This document shows positions 12,001 to 44,251 of a DNA stretch of 64,000 bases, in pieces. A model generated the notes under the pieces. That model ran no database searches and was not told the DNA's origin. It was given only the letters and a program-made list of their open reading frames with translations. Position numbers and translations under genes: made by a program. Numbering within the stretch: the first letter of the stretch is position 1; the number at the start of each line of letters is the position of its first letter. Source of the DNA: Euglena gracilis (lineage: Eukaryota); contig CP154954.1 of assembly GCA_039621445.1 (NCBI GenBank), positions 19,206,642 to 19,270,641 of the forward strand, in the 5' to 3' direction.

Positions 12001-12469
12001 TTGGGTTGGCAGATCGTGATACAACGGGAAAACAATGTCATCTTGAAGCCACCTCTCCGCGTGTTGAGGAGGAATCAAAACCCAGGGAACCAACCGGCCC
12101 CTGGCCCCCTGGCCCCCTCGCCCCCCCCCCCCTCCCCACCCTTCCGACCAGAGCCCCTGCCCCTGTCTCCGGCACTGGCAGCCAATACGGGATGTTCATG
12201 ATGGGACAGGGGGTATTGATGGGAAGAAACTGGGGGGGGGGGGGACGTCGGTCCCCCCGGCATTATTTCTTTAAAGGCGCCTGCAAAAACCTGAAAACCC
12301 TTTTAAAAAAAAGCTGAAAAAGTTTTTGGCCAAAATGCCTTAAAAACCTCAAATAATCTCAAAAATGCACCCTGGAAAATTTCTGAATTTCAACCAAAAA
12401 AATAAAGGGTCCTACTTCAGGTCCCGTGTGGTTTCCTTTGATTCCCCACCATTTCCGAGAGAGAGAGAG

Positions 12470-12511
<42 letters not shown>

Positions 12512-12754
12512 CAGAGATGATAGAGAGAAGGAGATAGGAGAGAGGAGATTAGAGGAATAGATAGATGCTAGAAGAGAGAGAGATAGAAGAGAGATAGAGA
12601 GATAGATAGAGAGTAGATAGAGAGATGCTACAATATACAGACAGAGACAGATAAGACAGACATAGAGAGTATATCGATATAGATATATATATAAGAGAGA
12701 GAGATAGAGAGAGAATAGTATATAGAGAGATATAATATAGAGATATATAGAGAT

Positions 12755-12836
<82 letters not shown>

Positions 12837-27800: not shown

Positions 27801-30800
27801 CAACCTTTCAAAAATTCCTGTTATGATAATACTACCGTATATATTGTCTTAGAAGCTGCTATTAATAGAGATATTATCCTCGTATCATCCATAAATTACA
27901 TATATGATTATAAATATTTAAAATTTAAAAATTCATAATACTATGTTAAATTAAAATATTAGTTTGTTTGGAATAATAATTATAACTATAACTATAACTA
28001 TAATTATAATATATTATATAATTATAATTATAATTATAATTATAATTATAATTATAATTATAACTATAACTATAATTGTAATTATAATTATAAACTATAA
28101 TTATAATATTAATTGCAATTATAAATAATTATAACTAAATTATATTATATTATATAATATACAATATGTGAATATATTATATGCTATATTTTTTTAATTT
28201 AATTTATGTCATTATAATTATAACTATAACTATAACTATAACTATAACTATGACTATAACTATAACTATAACAATATAATCTAATTATAAGTATAATTGT
28301 CATTGCAATTATAACTAAAAGACATAAATTAAATTAAAATATATTATAATCCACATAAACGACAGAACGAAATCTGACTAAGAGGGCAAATAATGTATGC
28401 AGATTGAGAAGAGAGAGGAGAACATTCTTACAGGAGAGGATAGAGGAGAGGAGATAGAGATGACTAGAGAGGAGGAGAGGAGAATATTAGAGATCGAGGA
28501 TATTGAGGAGAGGATTAGATATTAATATATCTTCTCTATCTCTTCTTCTCTATTATCTTCTGAGTCTTCTCTTCTCTCTCTAGATTTTCCTCTTCTTTCT
28601 CTTCTTTCTTTCTTTCTCTTCTCTATATTTTATTCTTTCTTATATTTATCTATTCTTAGTATCTTTCTTTATATATTATTATATTATATTCTTCTCTCTT
28701 CTCTCTCTCTCTCTTCTATTCTCTTCTCTTCTATTCTTTATTATTTATATTATTTATTCTTCTTGTTATCTTATATATATTAGGTTATATTATATTATAC
28801 CTACCCCCCCCCCCAGGAAACTGTCACCTGAAAGGTTGGCCAGTACCGGGGACCCTAACAACTTCCCATACTTAAAGGTTGGCTGGTACCAGGGACACTG
28901 ACAGTTTCCCTGGCTGGACCCTGACAGTTTTTCGGGTAGGGCATTTCAAGGGAAAGTCAATGAAAAATGACCCTGACAGGTTGGCCAGTGCTGGGGACCC
29001 TGACAACTTCCTATACTGACAGGTTGGCCGGTTCCGGGGACCCTGACAGTTTCCCGGGTGGGACCCTGACAGGTTCTCGGGCATGACAGTTTCCCGGGGG
29101 GGGGGTATTATACTACATTATATATTATATTTTTTATATTAATTATATTGTATTATATATATATATTATATTATATATTATATCATATTATATTATATTA
29201 TATTATATTATATTATATATCTATTATAATTATATATATTATATATATTATAAGATTAGATTGATGTATTGTATTGTATTTTGTATTGTATCTCTTGTCT
29301 TATATTTCTATTCTATTATGTCTTATTTTATCTTTTCTTATCTTCTCTTTCTATCTTATTTCTCTTCTATTCTATTCTATATTCTCTTCTATTCTCTTCT
29401 CTTTCTCTTCTCTTTATTTCTTTCTCTTCTCTTCTTCTCTTCTCTTTCTTCTCTTCTATTCTCTTTCTTTCCTTCTTCTTCTCTCTCTTCTCTTCTCTTC
29501 TTTCTTCTCTTCTCTTCTCTTTCTCTTCTTTCTTTCTTTCTTCTATCTCTTTCTCTTCTTTCCTCTTCTTCTCTTCTTTCTTTATATTATATTTCTCTTT
29601 CTCTCTTTATATCTCTTCTATTCTATCTCTTCTATCTTTATATTATATTCTCTTCTCTTTCTTTATATTTTTCTCTTATATTCTGTTATTTCTTTTATCT
29701 CTTATATTTTATATTATTATCTTATATTTCTCTTATATTATATTTCTCTTCTTATATATATTATATTATCTTGTTCTGTTCTGTTATGTTAGATTATATT
29801 CTGTTGTTAGTTATGTTAGATTATTCTCTATTCTTATTCTCTTCTATTCTATTATATCTTTATTCTCTTATCTTCTATTATATTATATTATATTGTATTA
29901 TATTATATTATCTCTATGTATTTTATATATCTATTTATTGTGTTATATTTGTCTTGTATTATATTATATCTTCTTCTTATATCTATATTGTATGTATTCT
30001 TATTGTTGTATTGTATTCTATCCCCTATTATATTCTCTGTATCTTGTATTGTATGTCTTGTCTTGTGTTGTATTGTATTGTCTTGTCTTGTGTATTGTAT
30101 ATTGTCTTGTCTTGTATGTTGTTGTTTTTGTTGTTGTATTTATTATATTATATTATATATATTCTATTATTATTATATTATTCTATAGTATATTATATCT
30201 CTTATATTATATTATATTATATTATCTTCTCTTTCTCTTTCTCTTCTATTACATATAATATATCTCTCTATATGTATATGTAATTTATGTAATATATATG
30301 TTGTATATGTTACATCATGTGTTATTTAACATAATTGTATTCTAATACATTATTAAGATTGTAATATAACATAATACTTGTAATGTTATAATTACAATTA
30401 AATATTATAATTAAATATTATATTAAATACTATAAATACTATAAATATATAAATGTTTGTCTCTTTATAATTCTTGGGCTGTTTTTTCTTGCGGCCTATG
30501 TTAAAACAGGTGCAACACATTCTGTCACCAAAAGACAGTCGGTCACCAAAACAAAGACGCCTGGGGGGTCCTATTTTGGGGGGGCTTACTCCAAACAAGA
30601 AAAAAAACCATGGAGGGGTGTCCAGGCTCCTGTCTGCCTTCCTCGATGCACATCAGCTGCAGCTGCTCCGTGTTGCCACACCAGCCGGCGGTGCCGCTCA
30701 GCGCGGCATACATCTCCGCCGGGTCCTTCAGGGCGACCCGCTGCCCCGCCAGCAACGACCCCGCGCTCCGGTCGGCCGATGGTTTGCCGCCCTCCCCCTC

Positions 30801-33800: not shown

Positions 33801-35915
33801 GCCTTAGGAGCGCTCCATATGCCCGCATATAACGTTTTTCCTCTCCCCACCAGGCCACCTGCTTGTGTACCCAACCTTTTCGAATACACACCAACAATCC
33901 GTCCCCTTGTTCCTCCGCATGACGTTTCGGTCTCCACAGTCAAGGTCAGATGGCACACTGGCAACGAGGAGTGCAGCAGTTGTATCGAATCATACATCAA
34001 CAGCCAAAATTTGTTGCGGCAAACTTGTTGGATTTTTCCTTCACAGGCCGCGTTCTCCGACATTGCTCTAAGTCAGCGCAAAGGCACATTGACCTATTAC
34101 TGTCCCTGGGAAAAAAATAAAAACCAGAAAAAATAACAACCCAAGCCGTTTGAGTTATTATTTTTCGGTTTTGTTTTTCCATTTTTTTCCCCAGTGCAAG
34201 GCCCCGCCTGGTCATGGCTCTTTGGATACTTCTCGGCGCAAACACACAATGACCAAATAATCCCATTCTCCATGGGGTGTGCAATGCATTATACACCTGC
34301 TTGTCTTCCCGGTCCAATTGGCCAGTGGTGTGCATAGGGTGCACCAAAATTTGCCAAAGCCCCCGTAACTCTGCCTCTGCAAAGTCGGAGGTCTTAGGTA
34401 CCCAAAGCCAGGAATATATGCGGCCCAGGTGCTTTTATCCAGCGTTTGCACCGCCCTTTCACAGGGTATCTTCTTGGGCCCAAATGTTCAGAGGTGTCCA
34501 GCATCCCCCCCAGCATGGGCAAAATTGTCATGGCACCATCAGGTAGGAAAAGAGCTCAGTACTACACAAAACCTGGAAAGGGGGGGGCAAGGAGGGTATA
34601 AGCAAAGGGGGGCAAGGGGGAAAGCGGGGTTAATGGAGTTAAGGGGTCCCCACTTCGTTCCATGCCTTCTTTGTGGGTCATCAAAGAATAATAAATCACC
34701 AATTGCTCGATTCTGAGGGGAAAAAATATTGGGGAGATGAAATGGTTTTGTGTGCTTCCTTGTCTCCTGGAAAGTAGTACCCGCCCCCCCCCCCCCTTGT
34801 CCAACGACCGGGTTCCTGCAACCCCCGACCAGGGGGGGGGGTCGTACACCCCGCCCAACCTGCAACCCCCGACCGGGGGGTGGTCGGTATATAGGGATGG
34901 TCGGTGGACAAGGGGGGGGGGGGCGGGTAAGGAGTTGGACAGTTTGCGCGGAAGAATCAGGCATGGGCCCAATCGGAGCAGTTTCTTTTTCCTTCGCGCG
35001 GTGGCAGAGCATGCTTTTCAAAACGTCCCCGCCTGTGCCACTGGACATGAACTGCCCCTCCTCCCGGGAGCCGTTCCGGGAGAACACCAAGCCCACGCTG
35101 CCGGCAAGCCCCACCTCCCCCAGGTAGTAGTCGAGGGGCAGGGCAGCGAGGGAGGAAACATGCCCCTCCCTTGCAAGCCCCAACCAACCGGGGGGATCAT
35201 ATCCACCCCCTTGCCTGTGACCCCCATAAACAGGGGTTGTCGATGGGCAAAGGCATCCGTGTAGCCGAAATATCCCCCGCCCCCTGAGACCAAGCAAATT
35301 ATCGGCAACGTTGATTGGAAAATACGCGTGAGCATCAGATGGGTGGATGGATACCATATGGAGATATGGATATGTGGATATGTGTATTTCCAGATATATG
35401 GATACATGTATATTTGGATATATGGATACGTGGAATATGGATATATGCCATATGGAGATATGCCATTCACATTCACAGGGGCATCTGGACTCAGAAGAAA
35501 TTCTCACCACTGGCCTGGTTGCCGCACCCAGGCAGCAGCTGCCGATCGTCCGTGCCAGAGATTTGCTGGGAGGGCAAATGATCCACCACACCATTTGTTT
35601 CAACCACCCCAGCCCGGGAAACTGTCACCGGACCCCTCAGAGGTCCTTCTGACCGACTTTCTATCGTGACATGTGAATAAGTGCAGTGACAGCGTTATGT
35701 GGGGGGGTAACAAAAAAGAACTGGACGCTTTGCAAAGCCTTCGGGCCACCAAGCAAAGGCCTGGCTCCTGATGTCCAGCACAACACCGACCGCGAAGGGG
35801 CGGTCCAGGTTCACCGCCAGGACCTGCAGGCGAATGGAGTGCCGGCCGTTGGCCATGAACGTTTGCTTGGTGATCGTCGTGCTATTTGTCGACCTGACAC
35901 GGGGGCAGGCACCGG

Positions 35916-36006
<91 letters not shown>

Positions 36007-37831
36007 GCGGGTACCGCTTGTCGCTACCGGGTTGTACCGCTGTGTGCGGAAAGAGAGAGACACGCGGGAAACCGCGGCCACCCCACAACGGGTGGAACAA
36101 AAGTCCCGGCCTTCCTTCCGGGCAACTAGCGCTTGCGAGCCCTTCGAGGCCAGGCGCATGGGACTGAAGCGCTTCCCCACACAGCCCAAGACGGCTAGGG
36201 GCTCGGAGTCCGGGGTGAGCCGACGCCGCCACCGCCCACGGCGAAAAGAATATGGGCTCCCGCCAGCTGACGCGGTTTACAAACATCAGCTAGGCCACCC
36301 CACGCAGCAACCGAGGTGGTGCTTCTCGGCCTGCAAGGACTCGAGCGCAAAGTCCCGCCCGCACAGCCTCCAGTGCAAGTCGGCACAGAGGAAAGAGCCA
36401 CGTGTGGGTGAAGCCCGTTACCCTCCTGGTGAGTCGCGGGTCGGGCTCCCCATACCTTGCTTGGGGTCGAAGCAAGTGGCTCTATGCGGGCTGTAGCTCC
36501 GGGAAGGCTGGCCCATCTCTGGGTGAAGGAGGCGGGCTGACGGGGTGCCAGGACCCCAATCGGCGCCGGCCGTGGACCAGAGTATCCCAGAGTGGTGACC
36601 ACCTTCACGCCAAGGAGTGGGGCGAGTGGCCCCCGGGGTCCCCGCTCCTGGCAACCGGAGTTCCTGGGCCGTTCCTCGGGTGACGGCAGCACCCGAGGGC
36701 CATGCAACACGCGGAGCCGCTCTCCAGGTGGGTGCCCACGGGGCTTTATCTCGCCTGCCTGGATGGAGCCGTGGGTGGCCCTGAGGGTCCGCATACCCTT
36801 GGGGTCCATGACTCGCCCACCCGCGGAACATGAGTGCCCCGTCACCAGGCGGTCTGCCCCCACCAGCCGGGCGTCGGGGGCATCGACAAGGAAGGCCCGG
36901 CTGGATCCGAAACCGCCTGGCTCTTTTACCGCTGTGTGCGGAAAGAGAGAGACACGCGGGAAACCGCGGCCACCCCACAACGGGTGGAACAAAAGTCCCG
37001 GCCTTCCTTCCGGGCAACTAGCGCTTGCGAGCCCTTCGAGGCCAGGCGCATGGGACTGAAGCGCTTCCCCACACAGCCCAAGACGGCTAGGGGCTCGGAG
37101 TCCGGGGTGAGCCGACGCCGCCACCGCCCACGGCGAAAAGAATATGGGCTCCCGCCAGCTGACGCGGTTTACAAACATCAGCTAGGCCACCCCACGCAGC
37201 AACCGAGGTGGTGCTTCTCGGCCTGCAAGGACTCGAGCGCAAAGTCCCGCCCGCACAGCCTCCAGTGCAAGTCGGCACAGAGGAAAGAGCCACGTGTGGG
37301 TGAAGCCCGTTACCCTCCTGGTGAGTCGCGGGTCGGGCTCCCCATACCTTGCTTGGGGTCGAAGCAAGTGGCTCTATGCGGGCTGTAGCTCCGGGAAGGC
37401 TGGCCCATCTCTGGGTGAAGGAGGCGGGCTGACGGGGTGCCAGGACCCCAATCGGCGCCGGCCGTGGACCAGAGTATCCCAGAGTGGTGACCACCTTCAC
37501 GCCAAGGAGTGGGGCGAGTGGCCCCCGGGGTCCCCGCTCCTGGCAACCGGAGTTCCTGGGCCGTTCCTCGGGTGACGGCAGCACCCGAGGGCCATGCAAC
37601 ACGCGGAGCCGCTCTCCAGGTGGGTGCCCACGGGGCTTTATCTCGCCTGCCTGGATGGAGCCGTGGGTGGCCCTGAGGGTCCGCATACCCTTGGGGTCCA
37701 TGACTCGCCCACCCGCGGAACATGAGTGCCCCGTCACCAGGCGGTCTGCCCCCACCAGCCGGGCGTCGGGGGCATCGACAAGGAAGGCCCGGCTGGATCC
37801 GAAACCGCCTGGCTCTTTTACCGCTGTGTGC

Positions 37832-37867
<36 letters not shown>

Positions 37868-40800
37868 GTCCCGGAGGGTGCCCCGTAGGTAGTGGACCAT
37901 TTTTCCGTCCCGCGCTGCCTTGTTTTTGGGGCCGGTTTTTTTCAGCCCCCCCCCCTCCCCCACCCCCGGGAGGGTGACGCAGAGCTCGTTTGTAACGGTC
38001 TGCACCACACAGAAAAGAGCGGTCGGGGACGAGGGTTGGCAGGGTCGTCACCCCTGACGATGCCCCACCTGCCAGCCTGGGGCGAAACCGCAACACAGAC
38101 TGACAACACACGCGCCCACACCGACTGACAACACACTTCCCCCACAAGCACACACTCTCGGGTCGGCAAGGAGTTCCCCCCAAGGAGTTCCCCCAGCAAC
38201 ACCGATCAGAAGAGAGAGAGAGAGAGAGAGCAACGAGGAGGACGCGGAGGACGGGGAGGACGAGGTCGTGGACGAGGCGACGGAGCCCAAGATCGACACG
38301 GCCATGGAGATCCCCGAAACCCGCGTGCCGGGCACGGAACTTGCCAGCCGTGCCCGTCATGCGGGTACCAGAACGAGGTGTACCACGCCGACGGGGCCCT
38401 GGGGGGTGGGGGGCTCGCCGGCGGTGGCATCCCCGGGCCCCCGGGCCCTGGCGCGGGGTCCGGGGGTGGCGTGAAAGGCGTGCGGAGCCCATGGGGGGAG
38501 CGCCGCCCCCCCAGCACGCACGCACGCACGGGGACCGCCACACACCCACCAGCAGGCAAGGGAGGGGGGAGGGGGAAGGGGCAGCCCAGCGCGCCAGACA
38601 GACGGGCAGCCACCGGAGGACCGGAGGCAAAGGGGAGGGGGAAAGGGAAGGGGCAGCCCAGTGCGCCAGACAGACGGGCAGCCACCGGGGGACAGGAGGC
38701 CAAGGGAGGGGGGAGGGGGAAAGGGAAAGGCAAGGGAAACCCACGTGGTAAAAGAGAGAGCGACGCGGGCAACCGCGGCCACCCTACAACGGGTGGAGGG
38801 AGAGTGACGGTGAGCGTCGCGCGGCACACGCCAGCCCGCGACGACAGGCCGCTCCCATACCCAGTCCACGGGAAGCACGCGAGGCAGGTGGAGAGGAGCA
38901 CGGGAAGGCAGGCGTGGACGTGGAGGTCATGGGAGGACTGGCACGTGAACGCCGTGCAACGGCGTTCCTGGCGCAAGAGCCCGATTCGGCGACTGCTGGA
39001 GCTCCGGCACGCTGAAGCACAAGCCAACGGAGACCGGGCCAATTACTTCTCCCCGGAGGCAGTGACCACCTGGCACGGGATGATCTACGGGGCGTACCAT
39101 TTCCCTACAGGGAAGTGGTACGTGGGCCAGACAGTCAACACCATCCGCCAGCGGGCACGAGAGCACTGGTACGCACGAAAGTCGGCGCGGGACTTCCTGC
39201 ACCTGGCGCTGGCAGACGACCCGGACCCGATGACCTGGCTGGCCCTGCCACTGGAGATCATCCCCAAGGAGCTGTGGCGATGTCCAGAGGCAGACCGACA
39301 AGCAGGGTGGCGGAAGAAAGGCTCTCCAGGGGTACCTGCCGATCACTGGCAGGGCGTGTCCCGGCACGCCGTCAATCGGGACCCCAACAAAACCCACCAG
39401 CACCATGACACAAAAAATCGCAGGCATGCCAGGCAATGACGGCCTGCCCGGCGCAGAGCCTCTGCCCCGGGTGGCAGGCGGGGCGCCAGCCTAAGAACCC
39501 GCAACCGATCTGGGGCGGATCTCCAGGGGTACCTGCCAATCATTGGCAGGGCGTGGCCCGACATGCCGTCAAGCGGGACGAAGGAGCAGAAGAACCGTGC
39601 CCCAGAAGCAGAAGCCAAGACCAGCACGACTGGAAGAAAGGGGCACGGATCGGGGAAGCAAAGAACCCCGGACCACCCCAAAGAGGGTACCAACAGCCCA
39701 ACCCAAAAGGGGGGGCCCAGCGAGGAGGACAACAAACAGGAAAAGGGCAGACACAGCCCAGGAAAGGAGGCAAGGGTGGCAAAGGAAACGTCACCCCACA
39801 AGGAAGCCGGCAGGGCCAACCCCAAGGAGAGGGCTGGCAAACAGCACAAAGCACCGGCCGAAAACGCCTCCAAAAGCGCCTCCAAGGGCTCCAACGAGCG
39901 CTGCAAGAAATGCAGCAAGAGCTCGACCAATGGCGGCGAGCCTCTACCAATCAGTCAAGAGGAGGGGGACGCCCCAAACAGCCGCAGCACCAGGCCGGCC
40001 CACACCGGGGCGGGGTTTACGCCGGGCAGTGAACCGGGGGTGACGCCGCCAAGGATCCCGCCCCCGGGGAGCCCGGGCGGGCCTGAGGACAGCGAGGGGG
40101 ACGCCCCGAGCCACGGACTGGCCCACACCGTGACGGGGTTTACGTCGGGCTGTGAACTGGGGGTGACGCCGCCAAGGATCTCAGCCCCAGGGAGCCCGGG
40201 CGGGTCCGTGATCGTGCTGCCAGGACCGGCCTCAGAGCCGAGGGGGGACGCCCCAAGCGACAGGCTGGCCCACACCGGAGCGGGGTTTACGCTGGGCGGT
40301 GAACCGGGGGTGACGCCGCCAAGGATCTCGCCCCCGGGGAGCCCGGGCGGGCCTGAGAGTTGCCAGCCCAAGGCCATGGAGACGGAGACAGACGCCCTCG
40401 AGGGGGTTGCAGCGCAGCCAAGCACCGCCTCCCAATCCCCCAGCGCCCCAACGGCCCCCACAGCCTCCCAAGGCCCCCCTCTCTCCAACCCGGACTCCGC
40501 CTCCCCAACCCCATGCCTCCCCCCACCCACCCGTGAGGTCCTCCAGGAGCGGGTCGTCATCGTCGAGAGGCAGGTCCCCGTTCCCGTGCGGGAGCCTGTC
40601 TTCGTGGATCGGGTCATCGAGCGGGTCGTCCCGGTCCCCGTGCAAGTCCCCGTGGAGGTCCGGGTCCCCATGCCCGTCCCCGTCCCCGTGGAGGTCCGGG
40701 TCCCCATCCCCATCTACCTCCCTCCCTCCGCGCCACAAGCCCCCTCCATCATGCAGAATGTGCATGTCAACACACTCACCATCGGCCCCTCCTCCTCCTC

Positions 40801-42077
40801 GTCTTCCTTGGCCCTCCTCCAAGGTCTCCCCATTCCCGCCATCGAGGCCCCCAACCGCCTCCTCCTCACCGCTCCCCCGCCACCACCCAGCGACACCACC
40901 GACGACGACACCTCTTCCCAAGGCCCCACGAAGAAGAGGAAGTTCACTTCGTTGAGTGAGTGGCCTGCCGAGTGGCGAGCCAAGTACGAAGAGTGGAAGG
41001 CGGTGCTGAAGGACCCACGACAAGCAGGACGAGGACAAACCATGTACGAATCATGGGACCCGGACCTGCAGAACCAGGTCTGGGCCTCGTGCGGCCCCCA
41101 GCGGCGGAGCATCATCCAAGAATGGCAAGAAGCCGCAGCAGTCCAGAACGTCGAGCGCCCCGCGGACCTCGAGCGCCAGACGCATGACTGGCATGAAGGT
41201 GCCAGGATCGGGGAGGCCGACCACCCCGGTCCAAGGCGCCACCCCCACGGCCCCCACCAGGGCCACCAACCCTCCGGGAGCCACGTCCCCGGAGCGAGAC
41301 CGAGCCACGTCCGGGCGGGTGGCAGGCAGCGTGGTGCCTGTGCCCCGCCAACCCCGTCCGCAGGGGAGCAAGCGAAGCGGGATTCGCCCCGGCCCCAAGC
41401 CCCTTGGCGACCCAACAGGGAAGCGGCCCGTGGGCGCCGCCCTGGGGATTCTTTTTCTTCAGCAGCCATGAGATTTTCCAGACCCTCTCGCCCTGGGAGT
41501 GCGCAGGGCAACCCACCCCGAGGAGAAGAAAGAGACCGAAGAGACGAAGGTGTCGCATGGACACCGGTGCAAAGCCGGCGGGGGGCAGCACTGCACAAGG
41601 AGATCAAGAGAATGGCGGACACCATCTCCGCCCTGAGCGCGGAGCTGAAGAAGCTACAAGAAAAATGCCAAGCTCAACGCCACTTTCGGGGGGAGTCGGA
41701 GCCCCCAACCACATCGAGACCACCGCGGAGGGGAGAGAGAGAGAGAGAGGGAGGCAAGGGCCGGCCCCCCTCCGATCCCCTCTCATCCCAACCCGTGGGA
41801 TCCCCTGCGAGGCCATCGTCGCGGCGGACGGCGGCGGCAGCGGCGGCAGCAGGAGACGACGACCAGCACAGACGCGGAGGCGGCGACATCGCAGGTGTGC
41901 CACCCCCGGCCTGCCGGAGCTGGTATCTCCGGCCCTCCAGTTCGGGCCGCACCGGCTGGAGGTGGGCGTGCAACCCGTGCGAGGCCTCCCCCCTCTGCGG
42001 CACCCCCCCACCTCCCTCCCCATCCCCTCCCATCCCCACCCCCACCCACACCCAGAATACCCCGTCCATACCAATCA

Positions 42078-42135
<58 letters not shown>

Positions 42136-43020
42136 TCGGAACGAGTTATTTGCCGAAGGACCAGGCTTCTATTTAACAACCACGGGGGAGGGGGTGCCTT
42201 CTGCTGTGTGGGACCTGCCCAAAAGAAGCTGTTTCTGAAATCATACAAAAACAATGCACAAACCTGTATGGAATGGCTAACCCGAACTTAGATCCTAACC
42301 CGAACCCATACATAAAAAAAAAGCATCAGCGCAAAAATAGGCGGCATCGGAGTAGGTCACAGAAGAGGAACCCAACCACTGCGTTCACTACTGGACCCCG
42401 GGGGGGGGGGGTGGCAACAGACGCCACGTTCCCCTCGGATCTCACCTGTCATGAACAAATCAAACCCTGTGTCCTGGAGATCTTTCAACCTTGATACGGA
42501 TGAAACGTGAAATGACACAGCAAATTGCACGTTTCCCGGTGCGAAAATCGCGTACCACAAACAATCCTATGTGAAAGAGTGGATCCCACCTCATGCAATA
42601 TGCATCTGAAGTCGGGCCCGATATCCCCCTCCGAGCCTGGCCAGTACGCGACGGTATCAGCATTGGCGCAGTCCACGCTCTTCAGGGTGTCTTTGAAATT
42701 CCACTTCCCCCGGAACGGCTTCCCGTCCTCCAATGAGTCCTGGAGGACCCGCTCCAAACGGTCGGCCATCGTCCAGGGGTGTGGTGTGAGGAGCACAGAA
42801 CCCTGCGTGAGGGGAACGAGATAAATGGGAGGGCTGCCCTGTGTTTCTGTGCCAACACATTTGCCCTGGCCCAGCCCACCAATGCAAGCAACGATGACAC
42901 CCATTCGGCGTAAAAGAAGCTTGCTCCCTTTGAGGGTGGAGGGGTAACAGCCTTATTTGGTCAGTGTGCCCAACATCTGAATAATAGCTCGGCACTCTCT
43001 GAAACAGGCACCCATCACCA
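1..43020 (-). CDS. Gene B (multi-exon, 3'-partial, start uncertain): giant multidomain protein SPRY-like / Mib-repeat-like / Zn finger / SPRY-like / 2x(Mib-repeat-like + MIB/HERC2) / SAM / ADP-ribosyltransferase
   Basis: About 30 short minus-strand coding segments in a coherent domain order. The C-terminal segments are collinear and homologous with gene A exons (e.g. [33 protein letters not shown] vs [33 protein letters not shown]). It cannot be excluded that the N-terminal half is a separate gene. Confidence 0.7.
265..2950 (-). CDS. Gene B exons, N-terminal part of the ART domain and preceding helical region
   Basis: Segments ~2855-2950 (GTNFVDLIHTVNYSQDDIFLKLW), ~2110-2200 (TALVPEYGELRGLGPPDTDGFAIRM), ~1588-1730 (..[27 protein letters not shown]), ~745-800 ([19 protein letters not shown]) and ~265-305. 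The first four match gene A segments clearly; the last match is weak. LY..W.Y..CN.A.R resembles the helical region preceding ARTC catalytic domains. Confidence 0.8.
880..1115. repeat. (TACA)n/(GACA)n microsatellite, intronic
   Basis: Directly visible tandem TACA and GACA units. Confidence 0.95.
3002..3140. mobile_element. MITE-like element with poly-C/poly-G terminal inverted repeats (TACCTC(n)TTGTCT ... AGACAAG(n)TA)
   Basis: Inverted termini with TA at both ends and no coding capacity. Confidence 0.6.
4865..7375 (-). CDS. Gene B SAM-like domain exons and following linker
   Basis: ~7345-7375 (PQADTFSQA), 6422-~6505 (YNSLEALSLATKEDLVRHGVLEPQAV), ~4865-4980 (LVRRLQDQ...RHRESPTF). The SAM pattern 'L..Lt.EDL...Gv' is present, and the segments are homologous to gene A 58555-60420. 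Confidence 0.7.
5385..5606. mobile_element. MITE family 1 copy (C(n)GGGAAACTGTCA ... TTTCCCG(n)) inside an AT-rich tract
   Basis: Terminal inverted repeats and internal GGGACCCTGACAG subrepeats; homologous to copies at 28802, 50347 and 53282. Confidence 0.85.
8560..11970 (-). CDS. Gene B second Mib-repeat-like + MIB/HERC2 module and Pro-rich linker
   Basis: ~11895-11970 (ITGYRVRMRNAEQIKDAV), ~11420-11590 (LASSMGTLKSYD...LVEFSGSEAYWLPRSCFDV), ~10975-11050 ([17 protein letters not shown]), ~10300-10445 ([24 protein letters not shown], the MIB/HERC2 signature), ~8560-8720 (YRQDDL + PAQP-rich linker). Confidence 0.8.
12457..12838. repeat. (GATA)n/(GA)n/(TA)n microsatellite cluster
   Basis: Direct inspection. 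Confidence 0.9.
13045..13470. repeat. Dispersed GC-run repeat (GGGGTCCGGACCCC...CCACCTAAAC...TGTACGCCCTCCTTATATC); related copy near 16945-17060
   Basis: Internally duplicated and shared with 16945-17060. Confidence 0.6.
16440..18830 (-). CDS. Gene B first Mib-repeat-like + MIB/HERC2 module
   Basis: ~18715-18830 (IAGHRILMRRAETIQEVM), ~18310-18490 (LASKQGTVKRYN...FVEFDSCGSHWVPRSCFNV), ~17905-17975 ([17 protein letters not shown]), 16641-~16730 joined to ~16440-16512 ([39 protein letters not shown]). Confidence 0.8.
16513..16640 (-). other. 128-nt nonconventional (non GT-AG) intron with a 13-bp terminal stem
   Basis: Minus strand GACCACACCGTTGCT ... AGCAACGGTGTGGCCGT. Removal restores the MIB/HERC2 sequence seen uninterrupted in the other two copies. 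Confidence 0.85.
21075..23960 (-). CDS. Gene B second SPRY-like beta domain exons
   Basis: HSTLAIKGTFSATGRNSLK, LEGLDPCGPLALGVYP, YVGGEGLPDSIGLV, GDTLEVAVEDGMVTFAVNGQPHG, LRFGVSL. These follow the SPRY-like motif order and parallel the 33-36 kb segments. Confidence 0.6.
25190..26130 (-). CDS. Gene B Cys/His zinc finger (ZZ/C1-like), two exons
   Basis: CPQGHAIQHSTSNSSFTCNVCKAELQASPMYGCR (~25985-26100) + CHYAACEACHRM (~25195-25235). Confidence 0.7.
25353..25764. mobile_element. MITE family 2 (TAC(n)TATGTCCAACGACC ... GGTCGTTGGACATAG(n)TA)
   Basis: Long terminal inverted repeats with TA flanks; related pieces near 11300-11359, 14520-14592, 18492-18550 and 34778-34929. Confidence 0.8.
26750..30900 (-). 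CDS. Gene B Mib-repeat (SH3_15-like) exons
   Basis: ~30640-30760 (GQRVALKDPAEMYAALSGTAGW), ~27640-27710 (WHDGQEPVASKCGEIRGFDNSDG), ~26750-26820 (YRVAVQSKLIWLPSTSFEL); these resemble the Mind-bomb repeat pattern. Confidence 0.55.
27880..30460. repeat. Long AT-rich/CT-rich low-complexity tract of degenerate microsatellites, intronic
   Basis: ATTATA, GA, CT and TA-type repeats with high degeneracy; may partly be noisy consensus. Confidence 0.9.
28802..29107. mobile_element. MITE family 1 copy
   Basis: TAC(n)AGGAAACTGTCA ... TGACAGTTTCCCG(n)TA with internal subrepeats. Confidence 0.85.
33140..35900 (-). CDS. Gene B first SPRY-like beta domain exons
   Basis: ~35760-35900 (STTITKQTFMANGRHSIRLQVLAVNLDRPFAVGVV), ~35030-35150 (LPLDYYLGEVGLAGSVGLVF), ~33140-33280 (RAGSIIAMVVAEGLLTVTVDGVEL). 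Confidence 0.6.
34778..34929. mobile_element. MITE related to family 2 (TACCCGC(n)TTGTCCA ... TGGACAAG(n)CGGGTA)
   Basis: Clear inverted termini. Confidence 0.75.
36845..36920 (+). ncRNA. Type III hammerhead ribozyme, variant core (UCGACAA), copy 1
   Basis: Stem III CCAGGCGGU/ACCGCCUGG; GUC site (cut after 36854); stem I UGCCCCC/GGGGGCA; core UCGACAA; stem II GGA/UCC; GAAA; 10-bp loop-loop pairing CCAGCCGGGC/GCCCGGCUGG. Confidence 0.8.
37737..37812 (+). ncRNA. Type III hammerhead ribozyme, variant core, copy 2
   Basis: Same sequence as copy 1; predicted cut after 37746. Confidence 0.8.
38019..38091 (+). ncRNA. Type III hammerhead ribozyme, canonical core
   Basis: GCGGUC (cut after 38024); stem I GGGGACGA/UCGUC-A-CCC; CUGACGA at 38054-38060 plus an extra U; stem II GCCCCA/UGGGGC; GAAACCGC; loop-loop pairing GGUUGGCAGG/CCUGCCAGCC. 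Confidence 0.9.
38320..39439 (+). CDS. Element ORF with Gly/Lys-rich region and GIY-YIG endonuclease (C-terminally truncated)
   Basis: GMIYGAYHFPTGKWYVGQTVNTIRQRAREH at ~39077-39165. The expected downstream catalytic Glu helix and G.N motif are absent after ~39320. Confidence 0.75.
39436..42080 (+). CDS. Element downstream ORF region (one frame change near 39960) with two 2A-like motifs, two coiled coils, a triplicated repeat and a VPV-rich segment
   Basis: ORFs 39436..40032 and 39563..42238 of the supplied track; motifs HDWKKGARIGEAKNPGP and HDWHEGARIGEADHPGP. Confidence 0.55.
42221..43020 (-). CDS. Probable 5'-most exons of gene B (unknown domain)
   Basis: Coding-like VPLTQGSVLLTPHPWTMADRLERVLQDSLEDGKPFRGKWNFKDTLKSVDCANADTVAYW. 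The exon ending at 42221 joins in frame to the exon at 35900 across a consensus stem intron. Confidence 0.5.
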
Positions 43021-43779: not shown

Positions 43780-44145
43780 GTAATTCTCCGTGGTGTATTC
43801 CTTTGACAATCGCTCTGTGCCTCCTCGGTTTGTTTTGATTTGGACCAACCAGGCTCCTTTTTACCAACCCAAGGGGGAGGGGGCTGCTTGTGCTATCTCC
43901 CTGGTGCCTGCCGACCAAGCAGGTTTTCCTTTGAAAATTGCCATTTTTCGGGCCCCCCAGCGCCTTCGGCACAACACACCCGAAACCCACTCCAAACAAA
44001 ACTCCCCCCAAAACCCTGCCACCCCTGGGGGGGTCGAAAATGCCCAACCCCCCTGCTTACCCACAGCACCCCCCTGGCTGTTTTAGGTGAACCCCCCGGC
44101 GGGTTGGAACCCCCAGGGGGCAGAATGGGGTGCATCTTAAGAAAC

Positions 44146-44186
<41 letters not shown>

Positions 44187-44218
44187 CGCACACACACACA
44201 CATGGACACACCCACACC

Positions 44219-44251
<33 letters not shown>

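What the first reader, a model, noticed from the sequence alone, without database searches (positions are those of the whole stretch)
35918..42132. (GA)n-associated Penelope-like element: three hammerheads, upstream GIY-YIG, 2A-like polyprotein, no RT
Seen: the order is (GA)n, 2x892-bp ribozyme repeats, (GA)n, canonical hammerhead, (GA)n, GIY-YIG ORF, ORF region with duplicated 2A-like modules, (GA)n. Short (GA)n tracts mark the module junctions in the 5' half. Known: Penelope-like elements combine GIY-YIG endonucleases with hammerhead-bearing tandem pseudo-LTRs, and the Naiad/Chlamys clade has the endonuclease N-terminal to RT. Inference: this is an internally deleted or non-autonomous member of a possibly undescribed euglenid family that targets or generates GA microsatellites.
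Basis: partly seen in the sequence, partly recalled or inferred. Interest (0 to 1): 0.82.

Follow-up and report, generated by a model that had tools for sequence, protein, structure and literature searches.

The report
Penelope-like retroelement pile-up in (GA)n
A 6.2-kb GC-rich island in a Euglena-type genome is a head-to-tail cluster of dead and helper-dependent pieces of one family of telomerase-related jumping genes, joined at GA repeats and carrying self-cleaving-RNA (hammerhead) motifs, which extends a known class of elements to a new group of protists.

Summary
The order (GA)43, 2x892-bp repeat, (GA)15, hammerhead, (GA)10, GIY-YIG start, NPGP-motif region, (GA)26 is real, and the block is a 63-70% GC island.

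It is not one element. It is a same-strand mosaic of at least four Penelope-like (PLE) units joined at (GA)n:
- two head-to-tail 892-bp non-coding units, each with a complete type III hammerhead that has a variant core (UCGACAA);
- a 345-bp unit with a near-canonical type III hammerhead;
- the 3' region plus 5' end of an autonomous element with a copy-specific deletion (aa 81-1551 of a 1954-aa Euglena transcript protein: half the GIY-YIG, the CxC motif, the RT);
- the 3' 2.1 kb of a second, more divergent copy.

Full-length relatives (1.6-1.95 kaa) have an N-terminal GIY-YIG (fold closest to I-TevI), CxC, GxK[F/Y] and an RT closest to TERT. This is the Naiad/Chlamys architecture without the CCHH motif, so Chlamys-like.

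Related metagenome elements carry the same hammerhead upstream of the GIY-YIG ORF, with compensatory changes and a 7-11-bp loop-loop pairing. The "2A-like" motif (SH.W.EG.R[IV]GEA.NPGP) is conserved but fits no defined 2A core. (GA)n targeting is suggested, not shown.

This scan had already noted PLEs and the variant hammerhead elsewhere in this genome. Verdict: new member of a known kind.

The parts
35918..36003 (+). (GA)43 microsatellite, left border of the GC-rich island
   Evidence: TRF, 100% matches
36004..36031 (+). 28-nt piece whose start resembles the shared 5' motif (CACGCGGG...). It may be the short 'tail' described for PLE insertions.
   Evidence: Read directly. 'Tail' is an inference from the Craig et al. 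2021 passage.
36032..36923 (+). 892-bp non-coding unit, copy 1 (non-autonomous, retrozyme-like)
   Evidence: Direct repeat with 892-nt spacing, 99.89% identity over 921 nt. No Pfam hit for its ORFs.
36924..37815 (+). 892-bp non-coding unit, copy 2. It is followed by 29 nt of a third copy that run into (AG)15 at 37836-37865.
36050..36096 (+). Shared 47-nt 5' motif: a short GA run, then a 5-bp hairpin with a GNRA loop (GAAA), then a 6-bp hairpin. It is also at 36942-36988 and 38751-38797 (loop GCAA) and at L001 1377-1421 (loop GGGA).
   Evidence: 91% identity among copies. Hairpins read directly and recovered in the MFE fold.
36845..36920 (+). Variant-core type III hammerhead of 892-bp unit 1. 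Core is UCGACAA (U3, C4, A8). Helices I/II/III have 7/3/5+ bp. Predicted cut is 36854|36855. Loop I and loop II are complementary over 10 bp.
   Evidence: Descriptor scan; loop test, 0 of 2000 shuffles reach it. Not found on this strand by model R1 or by Rfam.
37737..37812 (+). Identical variant-core hammerhead of 892-bp unit 2. Predicted cut is 37746|37747, 892 nt after the first.
37866..38210 (+). 345-bp unit 'C', bounded by (AG)15 and (AG)10. It is a separate, very abundant hammerhead-bearing repeat and is not part of the autonomous element's usual order.
   Evidence: Highest summed contig depth of the stretch in all 4 runs (a poor measure). An RNA-library contig joins 39523-39937 to 38239-38476 through 163 nt, without C.
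38016..38095 (+). Near-canonical type III hammerhead. GUC cut site at 38024|38025, core CUGACGA plus one extra U, GAAA present. Helix I has 8 bp with one bulged A, helix II 5 bp, helix III 4 bp plus U-A. Loop I and loop II are complementary over 10-11 bp.
   Evidence: Rfam RF00008 16.8 bits, below the 48.5 gathering score. Own model R1 scores it 77.5 bits, but it is a training sequence. Covariation with L001, L003 and L006; loops.
38211..38230 (+). (AG)10, the element-internal tract that precedes the hammerhead position in relatives
   Evidence: Compare L001 945-965, and the (CT)n tracts in L003, L006 and L009.
38231..38750 (+). Segment D: 3' region of an autonomous copy lying upstream of the next copy (pLTR-like). 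It contains a degenerate hammerhead relic at about 38270-38325, a CxPC motif and 72-bp repeats at 38548-38725.
   Evidence: 92% identical in translation to P0015 aa 1799-1952; TRF.
38751..39319 (+). Segment E: 5' motif, conserved W-rich N-terminal region, and the first half of the GIY-YIG endonuclease (39080-39319: GIY, YVGQT, R, H and first E)
   Evidence: 100% identical to P0015 aa 1-80; 62-63% to P0009 and P0011; alignments.
39319..39320 (+). Internal deletion junction. P0015 aa 81-1551 (about 4.4 kb) are missing: the rest of the GIY-YIG, CxC, GxKY, the RT and most of the C-terminal extension.
   Evidence: The loose ends on both sides at 39320 read as the ERALFRAVAT and PKNHPRPAWG stretches of P0015. 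No listed contig bridges the junction.
39320..39937 (+). Segment F: C-terminal part of the same autonomous subfamily. It holds the 63-nt module twice (39320-39382, 39517-39579), NPGP motif 1 (39625-39675, frame 1) and a coiled-coil segment. It has frameshifts relative to the transcript.
   Evidence: (indels at 39385-39458)
39938..42080 (+). Segment G: 5'-truncated 3' portion of a second, more divergent autonomous copy. It holds three 123-147-nt repeats (39973-40358), a PV-rich region, a WPAEW region, motif 2 (41183-41233, HPGP, frame 2), a coiled coil, an internal (GA)8 at 41733-41748 and a 3' region with a CNPC motif.
   Evidence: tblastn: P0012 aa 14-785 (E 3e-47) and P0011 aa 1124-1716 (E 3e-33). 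13 contigs have loose ends before 39935.
42081..42132 (+). (AG)26 microsatellite, right border
   Evidence: TRF

Best explanation
What it is. The island is a same-orientation cluster of retrotransposed pieces of one euglenid family of Penelope-like elements with an N-terminal GIY-YIG endonuclease (Chlamys-like). It sits in, or is bordered by, a (GA)n microsatellite, and every piece joins the next at a (GA)n tract.

Order, left to right: a short 'tail'; two head-to-tail copies of an 892-bp non-coding partner element; a 345-bp hammerhead unit; the 3' region of an autonomous copy acting as a pseudo-LTR; the 5' end of an autonomous copy that lost 4.4 kb (half of the endonuclease, the CxC linker, the RT); and the 3' 2.1 kb of a second, more divergent copy. 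Nothing here encodes an RT, so none of the pieces can move unaided. Full-length copies elsewhere in the genome, one of them transcribed (P0015), would supply the EN-RT in trans.

Shown: the identity of the pieces, the deletion, the high copy number, the linkage GIY-YIG - CxC - TERT-like RT, and the conserved hammerhead fold.

Inferred mechanism:
1. Transcripts that run through tandem or pLTR arrangements are cut by the type III hammerheads into unit-length RNAs. For the 892-nt unit the ends (5'-OH and cyclic phosphate) could be ligated into a circle, as in retrozymes.
2. The PLE RT copies these RNAs at a nicked (GA)n site. The element's own internal and terminal (GA)n tracts give microhomology for priming and for template jumps.
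3. This would explain why all junctions fall at (GA)n and why partial tandems and chimeras arise.
For: Homology:
- The window ORF piece has 8 near-length and 11 longer homologues and 81 representative clusters at E<=1e-3.
- P0015, which EukProt names EG_transcript_109, is 100% identical over aa 1-80 and matches Pfam RVT_1 at 32.1 bits (cut-off 29.6).
- Pfam GIY-YIG matches 10 of 16 relatives at E<=0.1, one above the cut-off.

Folds:
- An AlphaFold2 model of relative P0001 matches the I-TevI catalytic domain best: VIA Z 8.0, rmsd 2.4 A, 90 of 97 residues; Foldseek probability 1.00 but E 0.04. UvrC, T4 EndoII, Eco29kI and Hpy188I follow.
- The model of P0014 has telomerase TERT as its top 15 Foldseek matches (E 1e-8 to 9e-6), ahead of DRT2 and group II intron RTs.

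Motifs:
- CxC...GH occurs in 14 of the 15 proteins scanned, and GxK[FY] in the same 14.
- C281, C283, G318, K320 and D408 are invariant in alignment A3.

Mosaic structure: tblastn map; loose ends at 39320, 39935 and 38797; contig order 39523-39937, then 163 nt, then 38239-38476. P0012 reads from an NPGP motif (aa 469) across a copy junction into CxC (aa 1177) and the RT.

Hammerheads:
- They lie on the ORF strand 260-360 nt upstream of the GIY-YIG match in L001, L003/L004 and L006. L009 is an independent hit at 54.5 bits, E 5e-12.
- 93.8% of cells are paired against 77.3% in shuffles. 6 of 16 pairs have compensatory changes. 0 of 500 shuffles reach the covariation score.
- Loop I-loop II helices are 7-11 bp in 6 of 6 motifs; 0 to 38 of 2000 shuffles reach them.

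Known behaviour: Craig et al. 2021 (PMC8557442: abstract, section 9 and passages read) describe pLTRs, head-to-tail non-autonomous partners, internal deletions and microsatellite insertion bias for Chlamys.
Against: - No Rfam hammerhead reaches the gathering score anywhere: searches gave nothing, and one search gave 16.8 bits.
- The covariation rests on 4 sequences, plus one independent hit.
- 5 of the 10 related loci with at least 400 nt upstream show no hammerhead (L002, L005, L007, L008, L010).
- The autonomous subfamily present here (segment D) has only a degenerate relic, so a hammerhead is not needed by every copy.
- U4 is changed to C in the 892-unit core, a position that I recall (no call) is normally required for activity.
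- In L003, L006 and L009 the tract next to the hammerhead is (CT)n on the ORF strand, not (GA)n.
- Two other (GA)n tracts of 8 or more units in the window (12457, 44232) are unoccupied.
- Target preference, circular RNA, self-cleavage and template jumping were not tested.
- All runs laid were contigs, so RNA ends could not be seen, and no listed contig bridges 39319|39320.
- RT phylogeny against reference PLE clades was not done.
Confidence: 0.8

Rival explanations
1. One reading: the whole 6.2 kb is one non-autonomous, internally deleted element whose modules always travel together in this order.
For: All modules lie on one strand, share (GA)n joints and belong to one family. The 47-nt motif is shared between the 892-bp unit and the GIY-YIG copy.
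Against: Other copies diverge from the window exactly at 39320 (both sides), at 39935 and at 38797. An RNA-library contig shows the order 39523-39937, then 163 nt, then 38239-38476. Summed depth differs several-fold between modules. Segment G is only 22-27% identical in translation to the relatives that match segments D-F at 92-100%.
Confidence: 0.07
2. The pieces were inserted as ordinary copies. The present mosaic (892-bp duplication, 4.4-kb deletion, loss of the 3' part of segment F) arose later by slippage or unequal recombination at (GA)n tracts and at the 63-nt repeats, not during reverse transcription.
For: The two 892-bp copies differ at 1 of 921 positions, which fits a recent duplication. 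The deletion ends exactly at a 63-nt module that occurs twice in the element. Microsatellites are recombination-prone (general knowledge).
Against: Craig et al. 2021 describe head-to-tail multicopy insertions and internal deletions as products of Chlamys and PLE insertion itself. Segment F lacks its 3' end while abutting a 5'-truncated copy, which is what a template switch would give. Neither route was tested here.
Confidence: 0.3
3. Assembly artefact: a very high-copy repeat family was mis-joined, so the deletion junction and the F|G junction are chimeras of different loci.
For: 14,917 contigs of one run match the 4.2-kb stretch. No listed contig bridges 39319|39320 or 39937. Contigs break at the (GA)n tracts.
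Against: 18 of the 24 runs listed hold half or more of the stretch's sampled 31-mers, with a best share of 0.74. Only a small part of the laid pieces is listed, so a missing bridge proves nothing. Flanking unique sequence and the strand-consistent order are ordinary for PLE clusters.
Confidence: 0.07
4. The hammerhead-shaped motifs are inactive relics or hitch-hikers with no role in the element's cycle.
For: Most Naiad and Chlamys elements proliferate without canonical HHRs (PMC8557442 passages). The autonomous copy here has only a relic. The 892-unit core carries U4C. 5 of 10 related loci lack the motif.
Against: The fold is kept by compensatory changes in all three helices and in the loop-loop pairing, across elements whose proteins are only 38-67% identical. 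This implies selection on the RNA.
Confidence: 0.25

Closest known systems
Chlamys elements of the Naiad/Chlamys clade of Penelope-like elements (Craig, Yushenova, Rodriguez & Arkhipova 2021, PMC8557442; abstract, section 9 and passages read)
   Same: - N-terminal GIY-YIG with R, H, E and N residues, and without the CCHH and CX2-5CxxC motifs.
- KR-rich stretch, CxC motif, GxK[F/Y] motif and a D[K/R] motif.
- Long spacing between RT motifs A and B.
- TERT-like RT.
- Partial tandems (pLTRs), head-to-tail non-autonomous partners and internally deleted copies.
- Association with microsatellites.
- Some families have ORFs of about 1,800 aa with C-terminal extensions.
   Different: - Host: the paper's main text lists green algae, streptophytes, Selaginella and Physarum, and 'euglen' has 0 occurrences.
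- The microsatellite is (GA)n, against (CA)n and (C)n.
- A full type III hammerhead is common here, while most Chlamys lack canonical HHRs (two subclades excepted).
- The motif is DR instead of DK in most members.
- The C-terminal extension carries the SH.W.EG.R[IV]GEA.NPGP motif followed by a basic coiled-coil part.
- Placement in the RT tree was not tested.
Retrozymes: plant LTR retrozymes with type III HHRs (PMC4918200, search listing only) and metazoan non-LTR retrozymes with type I HHRs (PMC7229834, passages read; bioRxiv 10.64898/2026.07.22.740005, abstract read)
   Same: The 892-bp unit is non-coding and head-to-tail, with one hammerhead per unit. It shares sequence with the autonomous PLE (the 47-nt 5' motif and the hammerhead region). 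Its size lies in the 600-1000-nt range quoted for plant retrozyme circles.
   Different: The host is a protist. The core is a variant (U3, C4, A8). No LTRs are present. Only two copies lie here. Neither circular RNA nor self-cleavage has been shown.
Typical PLE hammerheads (review PMC6155905, passages read)
   Same: A hammerhead sits in the repeated terminal region of a PLE, upstream of the ORF in partial tandems.
   Different: The review says PLE motifs are usually minimal versions lacking helix III and the tertiary contacts. The motifs here are full type III, with a 4-5-bp helix III and a 7-11-bp Watson-Crick loop I-loop II pairing. The same review describes that kind of pairing as usual for prokaryotic type II hammerheads.
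StopGo/2A peptides, class A (GDxExNPGP or GxExNPGP) and class B (W at about position 16, EEGIE, P-[N/H]-PGP) (bioRxiv 10.64898/2026.06.17.732966 and PMC12338488, passages read)
   Same: A terminal [N/H]PGP, an upstream Trp and an acidic/Gly centre. The motif lies inside a retroelement ORF, just before a basic coiled-coil part. In ORF1p-like proteins, 2A-like peptides precede the coiled coil.
   Different: E is one position off (G-E-A-x-NPGP against G-x-E-x-NPGP). Trp is at position 15, not 16. There is no Pro before N/H. In class B a one-residue shift of register abolished activity. Activity of this motif is untested.
EN-minus PLEs Athena and Coprina (as described in the PMC8557442 introduction passage)
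   Same: A short simple-repeat tract lies next to a hammerhead near the element's 3' end, and was proposed there to help the RNA attach to a matching DNA repeat.
   Different: Those elements lack an endonuclease and use reverse-complement telomeric repeats at chromosome ends. Here an endonuclease is present and the repeat is (GA)n, or (CT)n in relatives. The spacing between tract and hammerhead varies from 35 to 176 nt.

Membership tests
Naiad/Chlamys (N-terminal EN+) Penelope-like elements | GIY-YIG endonuclease N-terminal to the RT in one ORF | tested here: met
   Met in full-length relatives. YVGxT lies at aa 14-141 and the RT motifs at aa 570-840. Pfam GIY-YIG matches 10 of 16 relatives, and RVT_1 matches 5 of those 16 plus 3 of 6 others. 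The fold is closest to I-TevI, Z 8.0. The window copy keeps only the first 80 residues.
Naiad/Chlamys (N-terminal EN+) Penelope-like elements | CxC motif, then GxK[F/Y], between EN and RT | tested here: met
   CxC...GH and GxK[FY] occur in 14 of 15 proteins scanned; the 15th, P0002, ends before that region. The columns are invariant in A3 and A8. Both motifs are deleted from the window copy.
Naiad/Chlamys (N-terminal EN+) Penelope-like elements | DK(G/A) motif and an IFD-like insertion between RT motifs A and B | tested here: inconclusive
   The Asp is invariant. The next residue is K in 2 of 14 (P0086, P0089) and R in the others. The A-to-B spacing is 97 aa in P0015 (D570 to G667), which is long, but no reference alignment was available.
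Naiad/Chlamys (N-terminal EN+) Penelope-like elements | RT related to telomerase RT and grouping with reference Naiad/Chlamys RTs | tested here: inconclusive
   The top 15 Foldseek matches of the P0014 model are TERTs. A sequence profile against the PDB found only generic RT motifs. No phylogeny with reference PLEs was done because none were on hand.
Naiad/Chlamys (N-terminal EN+) Penelope-like elements | Partial tandems (pLTRs), 5' truncation and microsatellite insertion bias | tested here: inconclusive
   Tandem and pLTR arrangement is met: segments D+E in the window, P0012 reading across a junction, and L001. Segment G is 5'-truncated. Microsatellite bias is seen at this one locus and at one other copy's 5' joint, not genome-wide.
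Chlamys as opposed to Naiad | No CCHH motif inside the GIY-YIG and no CX2-5CxxC linker | tested here: met
   The GIY...YVGQT core has at most one Cys in any of the 14 aligned relatives, and the upstream region is W-rich with no Cys pairs.
Hammerhead ribozyme, type III | Conserved core (CUGANGA, GAAA, cleavage triplet UH) framed by helices I, II and III | tested here: met
   Met at 38016-38095 with one extra U after A9, and in L001, L003/L004 and L006. L009 has C4 in the core. The 892-bp units have U3, C4 and A8.
Hammerhead ribozyme, type III | Rfam RF00008 gathering score | tested here: not met
   16.8 bits against a gathering score of 48.5. No match. The long helix I and II loops are the likely cause (inference).
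Hammerhead ribozyme, type III | Helices supported by covariation; loop-loop tertiary contact | tested here: met
   6 of 16 pairs have compensatory changes, and 0 of 500 shuffles reach the score, on 4 sequences. Loop I-loop II pairing is 7-11 bp in 6 of 6 motifs.
Hammerhead ribozyme, type III | Self-cleavage at the predicted site | not testable with these tools
   Only contigs were available, so RNA ends are not visible. One other copy has (GA)n abutting position 38028, 3 nt from the predicted cut. This is a single observation.
StopGo/2A peptide | Core GDxExNPGP or GxExNPGP (class A), or W16...EEGIE-P-[N/H]PGP (class B) | tested here: not met
   The motif is SH.W.EG.R[IV]GEA.[N/H/Q]PGP in 5 of the 5 long proteins that reach this region, twice in the window and once in L001. 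E is one position off and W is at position 15. P0018 also has GDIHPNPGP.
Retrozyme (non-autonomous HHR-bearing retroelement) | Non-coding repeat with a hammerhead in each unit, expressed as a circular RNA | tested here: inconclusive
   Two head-to-tail 892-bp units, each with a variant-core motif. Contigs continuing into the unit occur in one RNA library and in two libraries only guessed to be RNA (loose end at 38797). Circularity is not testable. The MFE z-score is -2.6 on 20 shuffles.

The most novel reading that the evidence does not exclude
Euglenid Chlamys-like PLEs carry a selected cis module with three parts: a purine/pyrimidine dinucleotide tract, a monomeric type III hammerhead locked by a 7-11-bp Watson-Crick loop I-loop II pairing, and terminal hairpins (one with a GNRA loop).

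The module would cut unit-length, possibly circular, RNAs both from the autonomous element and from its 892-nt and 345-nt non-coding partners. Those partners would be the first protist 'retrozymes' tied to their PLE. The module would also guide insertion into (GA)n microsatellites by pairing between the RNA and the target.

In addition, the ORF would hold a third class of StopGo site (SH.W.EG.R[IV]GEA.NPGP) that releases a basic coiled-coil, ORF1p-like protein from the EN-RT protein.
Probability: 0.22. Interest if true: 0.72.

Novelty: new member of a known kind. Interest (0 to 1): 0.5.

Why it matters
- It places N-terminal-endonuclease Penelope-like elements in euglenids (Discoba), outside the hosts listed in the main text of the 2021 description. 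This supports the idea that the clade is very old.
- Most Naiad and Chlamys elements lack canonical hammerheads. This lineage keeps a complete, covarying type III hammerhead. It sits beside abundant short non-coding units that share its ends, a natural system for testing whether PLEs mobilise retrozyme-like RNAs.
- The conserved NPGP motif before a basic coiled-coil tail gives a simple reporter test for a possible new StopGo variant.
- For genome annotation, such (GA)n-joined mosaics are a likely source of assembly breaks and of false long ORFs. The T-poor strand stays open across non-coding parts.

Tried and rejected
- The whole-genome search was not possible because no genome is held.
- Rfam gave nothing useful. 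At gathering score over 64 kb there were 0 matches. At E<=10 over 35500-42600 there were 8 matches, none a ribozyme, all miRNA or lncRNA matches to GA-rich sequence. At E<=1 over L001-L012 there was 1 spurious lncRNA match.
- Pfam on five window ORFs gave no credible family. I dropped long + strand ORFs as evidence of coding, because A greatly exceeds T there.
- The single in-frame TGA at 39437-39439 was considered as a selenocysteine or readthrough site and rejected. That stretch is out of frame relative to the transcript protein.
- Earlier-findings look-ups by place (near) and by sequence returned nothing relevant.
- The PDB sequence profile search found only the generic RT B-C motifs.
- The protein-atlas look-alikes (Rotifera and Streptophyta clusters, HTH_animal, RVT_1) are leads only.
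- My first hammerhead regex missed the 38054 core because of the extra U. Two loose pattern hits elsewhere in the window (63670-63721; 52938-52837) lack good helices and were not pursued.
- Model R1 matched the 892-bp units only on the minus strand at 12.4 bits, which I treat as an artefact of their palindromic loops.
- Bins without cover in run X19, and the lack of a listed contig across 39320 or 39937, are not evidence of absence.
- The third homologue search and the complex-prediction tool were not used.

Full report
**1. The observation**

- (GA)43 lies at 35918-36003, (AG)15 at 37836-37865 and (AG)26 at 42081-42132.
- Shorter tracts lie at 38211-38230, 38753-38760 and 41733-41748.
- The 892-bp repeat is nearly perfect: 921 aligned nt at 99.89% identity.
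- Bases 36001-42000 are 63-70% GC in a window that averages 50%, so the block is a discrete island.
- On the + strand A greatly exceeds T (AT skew up to 0.52). Stop codons are therefore rare, and the long + strand ORFs are not evidence of coding. Pfam finds nothing credible in five of them.

**2. What the protein-coding pieces are**

The stretch 38879-39436 has 8 homologues of similar length and 11 longer ones. It also matches 81 representative clusters at E<=1e-3 in a library of 1.84 billion proteins.

The longer proteins run to 1613-1954 aa.
- P0015 is a EukProt record named EG_transcript_109. It is 100% identical to the window over its first 80 residues (39080-39319) and 92% over aa 1799-1952 (38189-38656).
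- P0015 passes Pfam's RVT_1 cut-off, 32.1 against 29.6 bits.
- Among 16 further relatives, 10 match Pfam GIY-YIG at E<=0.1 at the aligned position. One is above the cut-off (P0089, 24.5 against 22.6 bits). Five match RVT_1.

Predicted structures agree.
- A model of relative P0001 (mean pLDDT 76) is closest to the I-TevI catalytic domain: VIA Z 8.0, rmsd 2.4 A, 90 of 97 residues aligned. Foldseek gives probability 1.00 but E 0.04-0.08.
- UvrC, T4 EndoII, PD-T4-3, Eco29kI and Hpy188I follow.
- A model of P0014 (992 aa, mean pLDDT 76) has telomerase TERTs as its top 15 Foldseek matches (E 1e-8 to 9e-6). DRT2 and group II intron RTs come next.

Alignments show invariant Y/Y-V-G-T, R, H, E...E, W and N residues of the endonuclease. 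After them come a KR-rich stretch, an invariant CxC, GxK[F/Y], a D[K/R]xxH motif, and RT motifs (DFTTMY, PMG, [YF]IDD) with 97 residues between motifs A and B.

This is the architecture that Craig et al. 2021 define for the Naiad/Chlamys clade. The lack of Cys pairs in and before the GIY-YIG is the Chlamys condition.

**3. The window copy is broken, and the locus is a mosaic**

P0015 aa 81-1551 are missing at 39319|39320.

Contigs of four public runs were laid on 37866-42080.
- Copies that match up to 39320 continue with sequence that reads as the ERALFRAVAT stretch of P0015.
- Copies that match from 39320 onward are preceded by sequence that reads as its PKNHPRPAWG stretch. The deletion is therefore specific to this copy.
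- Thirteen contigs diverge just before 39935.
- One 816-nt contig from an RNA library joins 39523-39937 through 163 nt to 38239-38476. That is the order in P0015.

From this:
- Segment D (38231-38750) is the 3' region of the element. Lying upstream of E it acts as a pseudo-LTR.
- The 345-bp unit C (37866-38210) is not part of the autonomous element.
- Segment G (39938-42080) is the 5'-truncated 3' part of a different, more divergent copy. It matches P0012 aa 14-785 at E 3e-47 and 26% identity.

P0012 itself reads from an NPGP motif at aa 469 across a copy junction into CxC at aa 1177 and the RT. Head-to-tail copies are therefore usual in this family.

In the DNA run, 14,917 contigs matched the 4.2 kb. 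Summed depth was highest over the hammerhead of unit C in all four runs, though the tool warns that this is a poor measure.

No RT core is found anywhere in the 64-kb window.

**4. The hammerheads**

- A descriptor scan shows a complete type III shape at 36845-36920 and 37737-37812. It has a GUC cut site, a 7-bp helix I, a helix II, a helix III of 5 bp or more, and GAAA.
- The core carries U3 and A8, which pair with each other in the active fold, and C4.

The motif at 38016-38095 has the full canonical core, with one extra U after A9. Rfam gives it only 16.8 bits.

The same descriptor finds canonical type III hammerheads on the ORF strand 260-360 nt upstream of the GIY-YIG match in metagenome relatives L001, L003 (identical in L004) and L006.
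- On the alignment of four motifs, 93.8% of cells pair, against 77.3% in shuffles.
- 6 of 16 pairs show compensatory changes, spread over all three helices.
- No shuffle of 500 reaches the covariation score, and slid controls fall to 30-53% paired.

A covariance model built from those four found one new motif, in L009 (54.5 bits, E 5e-12, core CCGAUGA). It found none in L002, L005, L007, L008 or L010-L012. The motif is thus present in 5 of the 10 related loci that have at least 400 nt upstream; L003 and L004 are duplicates.

In all six motifs loop I and loop II can form a 7-11-bp helix with a different sequence each time. Between 0 and 38 of 2000 shuffles reach the observed length. A hammerhead review says such Watson-Crick loop contacts are usual for type II motifs. 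It also says PLE hammerheads are usually minimal and lack helix III.

The relic at about 38270-38325 in D resembles the 892-unit motif but has no helix III or cut site (read directly).

**5. The (GA)n joints and shared ends**

The 892-bp unit and the autonomous copy share a 47-nt start, 91% identical. It consists of a short GA run, a 5-bp hairpin whose loop is GAAA, GCAA or GGGA (all of GNRA form), and a 6-bp hairpin.

In this island, units end in a small hairpin followed by A-rich sequence and (GA)n.

In relatives a dinucleotide tract lies 35-50 nt (L003, L009) or 176 nt (L001) before the hammerhead cut site. In L003, L006 and L009 it is (CT)n on the ORF strand.

One other genomic copy has (GA)n abutting position 38028, 3 nt from the predicted cut. 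This is the same contig seen in two runs.

Two other (GA)n tracts of 8 or more units in the window are plain microsatellites.

Microsatellite association is therefore clear at this locus and is known for the clade, but a target preference is not demonstrated.

**6. The '2A-like' motif**

SH.W.EG.R[IV]GEA.[N/H/Q]PGP occurs in all five long relatives that reach this region (twice in P0015), twice in the window (39625-39675 and 41183-41233) and once in L001. A basic region and a coiled coil follow it.

Published definitions are GDxExNPGP or GxExNPGP for class A. Class B has a Trp at about position 16, an EEGIE stretch and a Pro before [N/H]PGP, and a one-residue shift of register abolished its activity.

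The motif here has the Glu one position off, the Trp at position 15, and no Pro before N/H. It is conserved and worth a reporter test, but it is not a member of either class.

**7. Mechanism**

Shown: the identities, the architecture, the deletion, the mosaic, and the conserved RNA fold.

Inferred, by analogy with PLEs and retrozymes:
- Read-through transcripts are cut by the hammerheads into unit-length RNAs.
- The 892-nt unit, measured cut site to cut site, could be circularised.
- The EN-RT of full-length copies nicks a (GA)n site and copies these RNAs.
- Internal and terminal (GA)n tracts give microhomology for priming and template jumps. This would yield partial tandems and chimeras joined at (GA)n.

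Later slippage or recombination at the repeats could have produced part of the present structure instead.

**8. Novelty**

Three full-text searches (Euglena with Penelope-like; Euglena gracilis with Penelope and transposable elements; hammerhead ribozyme with Euglena) found no paper describing PLEs or hammerheads in Euglena. The 2021 paper's main text does not mention euglenids; its supplements were not read.

This scan had already noted a variant-core hammerhead and a J-domain PLE elsewhere in the same genome.

The locus itself is a degenerate example of known PLE behaviour. The family behind it is a new member of the Naiad/Chlamys kind with some unusual features: a type III hammerhead with a loop-loop helix, the (GA)n joints, and the NPGP motif.

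Noticed in passing
39320-39382 and 39517-39579; L001 139-194: A 63-nt module occurs twice in the element and is 81-89% conserved at nucleotide level. That is higher than the 76% of the GIY-YIG coding part against L001. RNAalifold predicts three hairpins, with compensatory changes in the third (3 sequences only). The deletion junction falls exactly at its first base. It is translated as GSPGVPA[DN]H.QGV..HAV in P0015 and P0018, so it may be either RNA structure or peptide.
   Followed up: partly
36060-36096, 36952-36988, 38761-38797; L001 1387-1421: The 5' motif shared by the autonomous and non-autonomous units has a 5-bp hairpin whose tetraloop varies only within the GNRA form (GAAA, GCAA, GGGA). 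A hairpin with a 6-nt loop follows. This looks like a selected RNA element, although some database proteins translate it.
   Followed up: partly
38129-39086: In this subfamily there is no ATG upstream of the conserved, well-modelled W-rich helices that precede the GIY-YIG (P0015 starts at the Met of MIYGAY). Other relatives have Met codons at various upstream places. How translation starts is unclear. The frame is open back through the upstream copy.
   Followed up: no
P0018 aa 1432-1449: One relative has, besides the family motif, a second site GDIHPNPGP. It is one residue (E to H) from the canonical 2A core.
   Followed up: no
L003 1520-1560, L006 375-395, L009 305-340: In one metagenomic subclade the tract before the hammerhead is (CT)n on the ORF strand, the opposite polarity to the Euglena-type copies. 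The 150 nt before it and about 120 nt after the hammerhead are conserved between these loci.
   Followed up: partly
runs X19 and X20: An RNA-seq library labelled as a leaf-litter metatranscriptome holds 45% of the sampled words of the 7-kb stretch, with contigs at least 90% alike over segments C, D, E and F. Whether that is RNA or carried-over DNA cannot be told from contigs.
   Followed up: partly
28001-30000: A very AT-rich stretch (24-28% GC) with strong negative GC and AT skew in 29001-30000. It is unlike the rest of the window.
   Followed up: no
12457-12800 and 44140-44251: Compound microsatellites: (GA)8-(GATA)n-(TA)n at the first site and (GT)n-(GC)n-(CA)n-(AG)10 at the second. Neither holds any PLE sequence.
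   Followed up: yes
63670-63721: CTGATGA...GAAA with a 3-bp helix II turned up in a loose regex scan. No helices I or III were checked, and it is probably chance.
   Followed up: no
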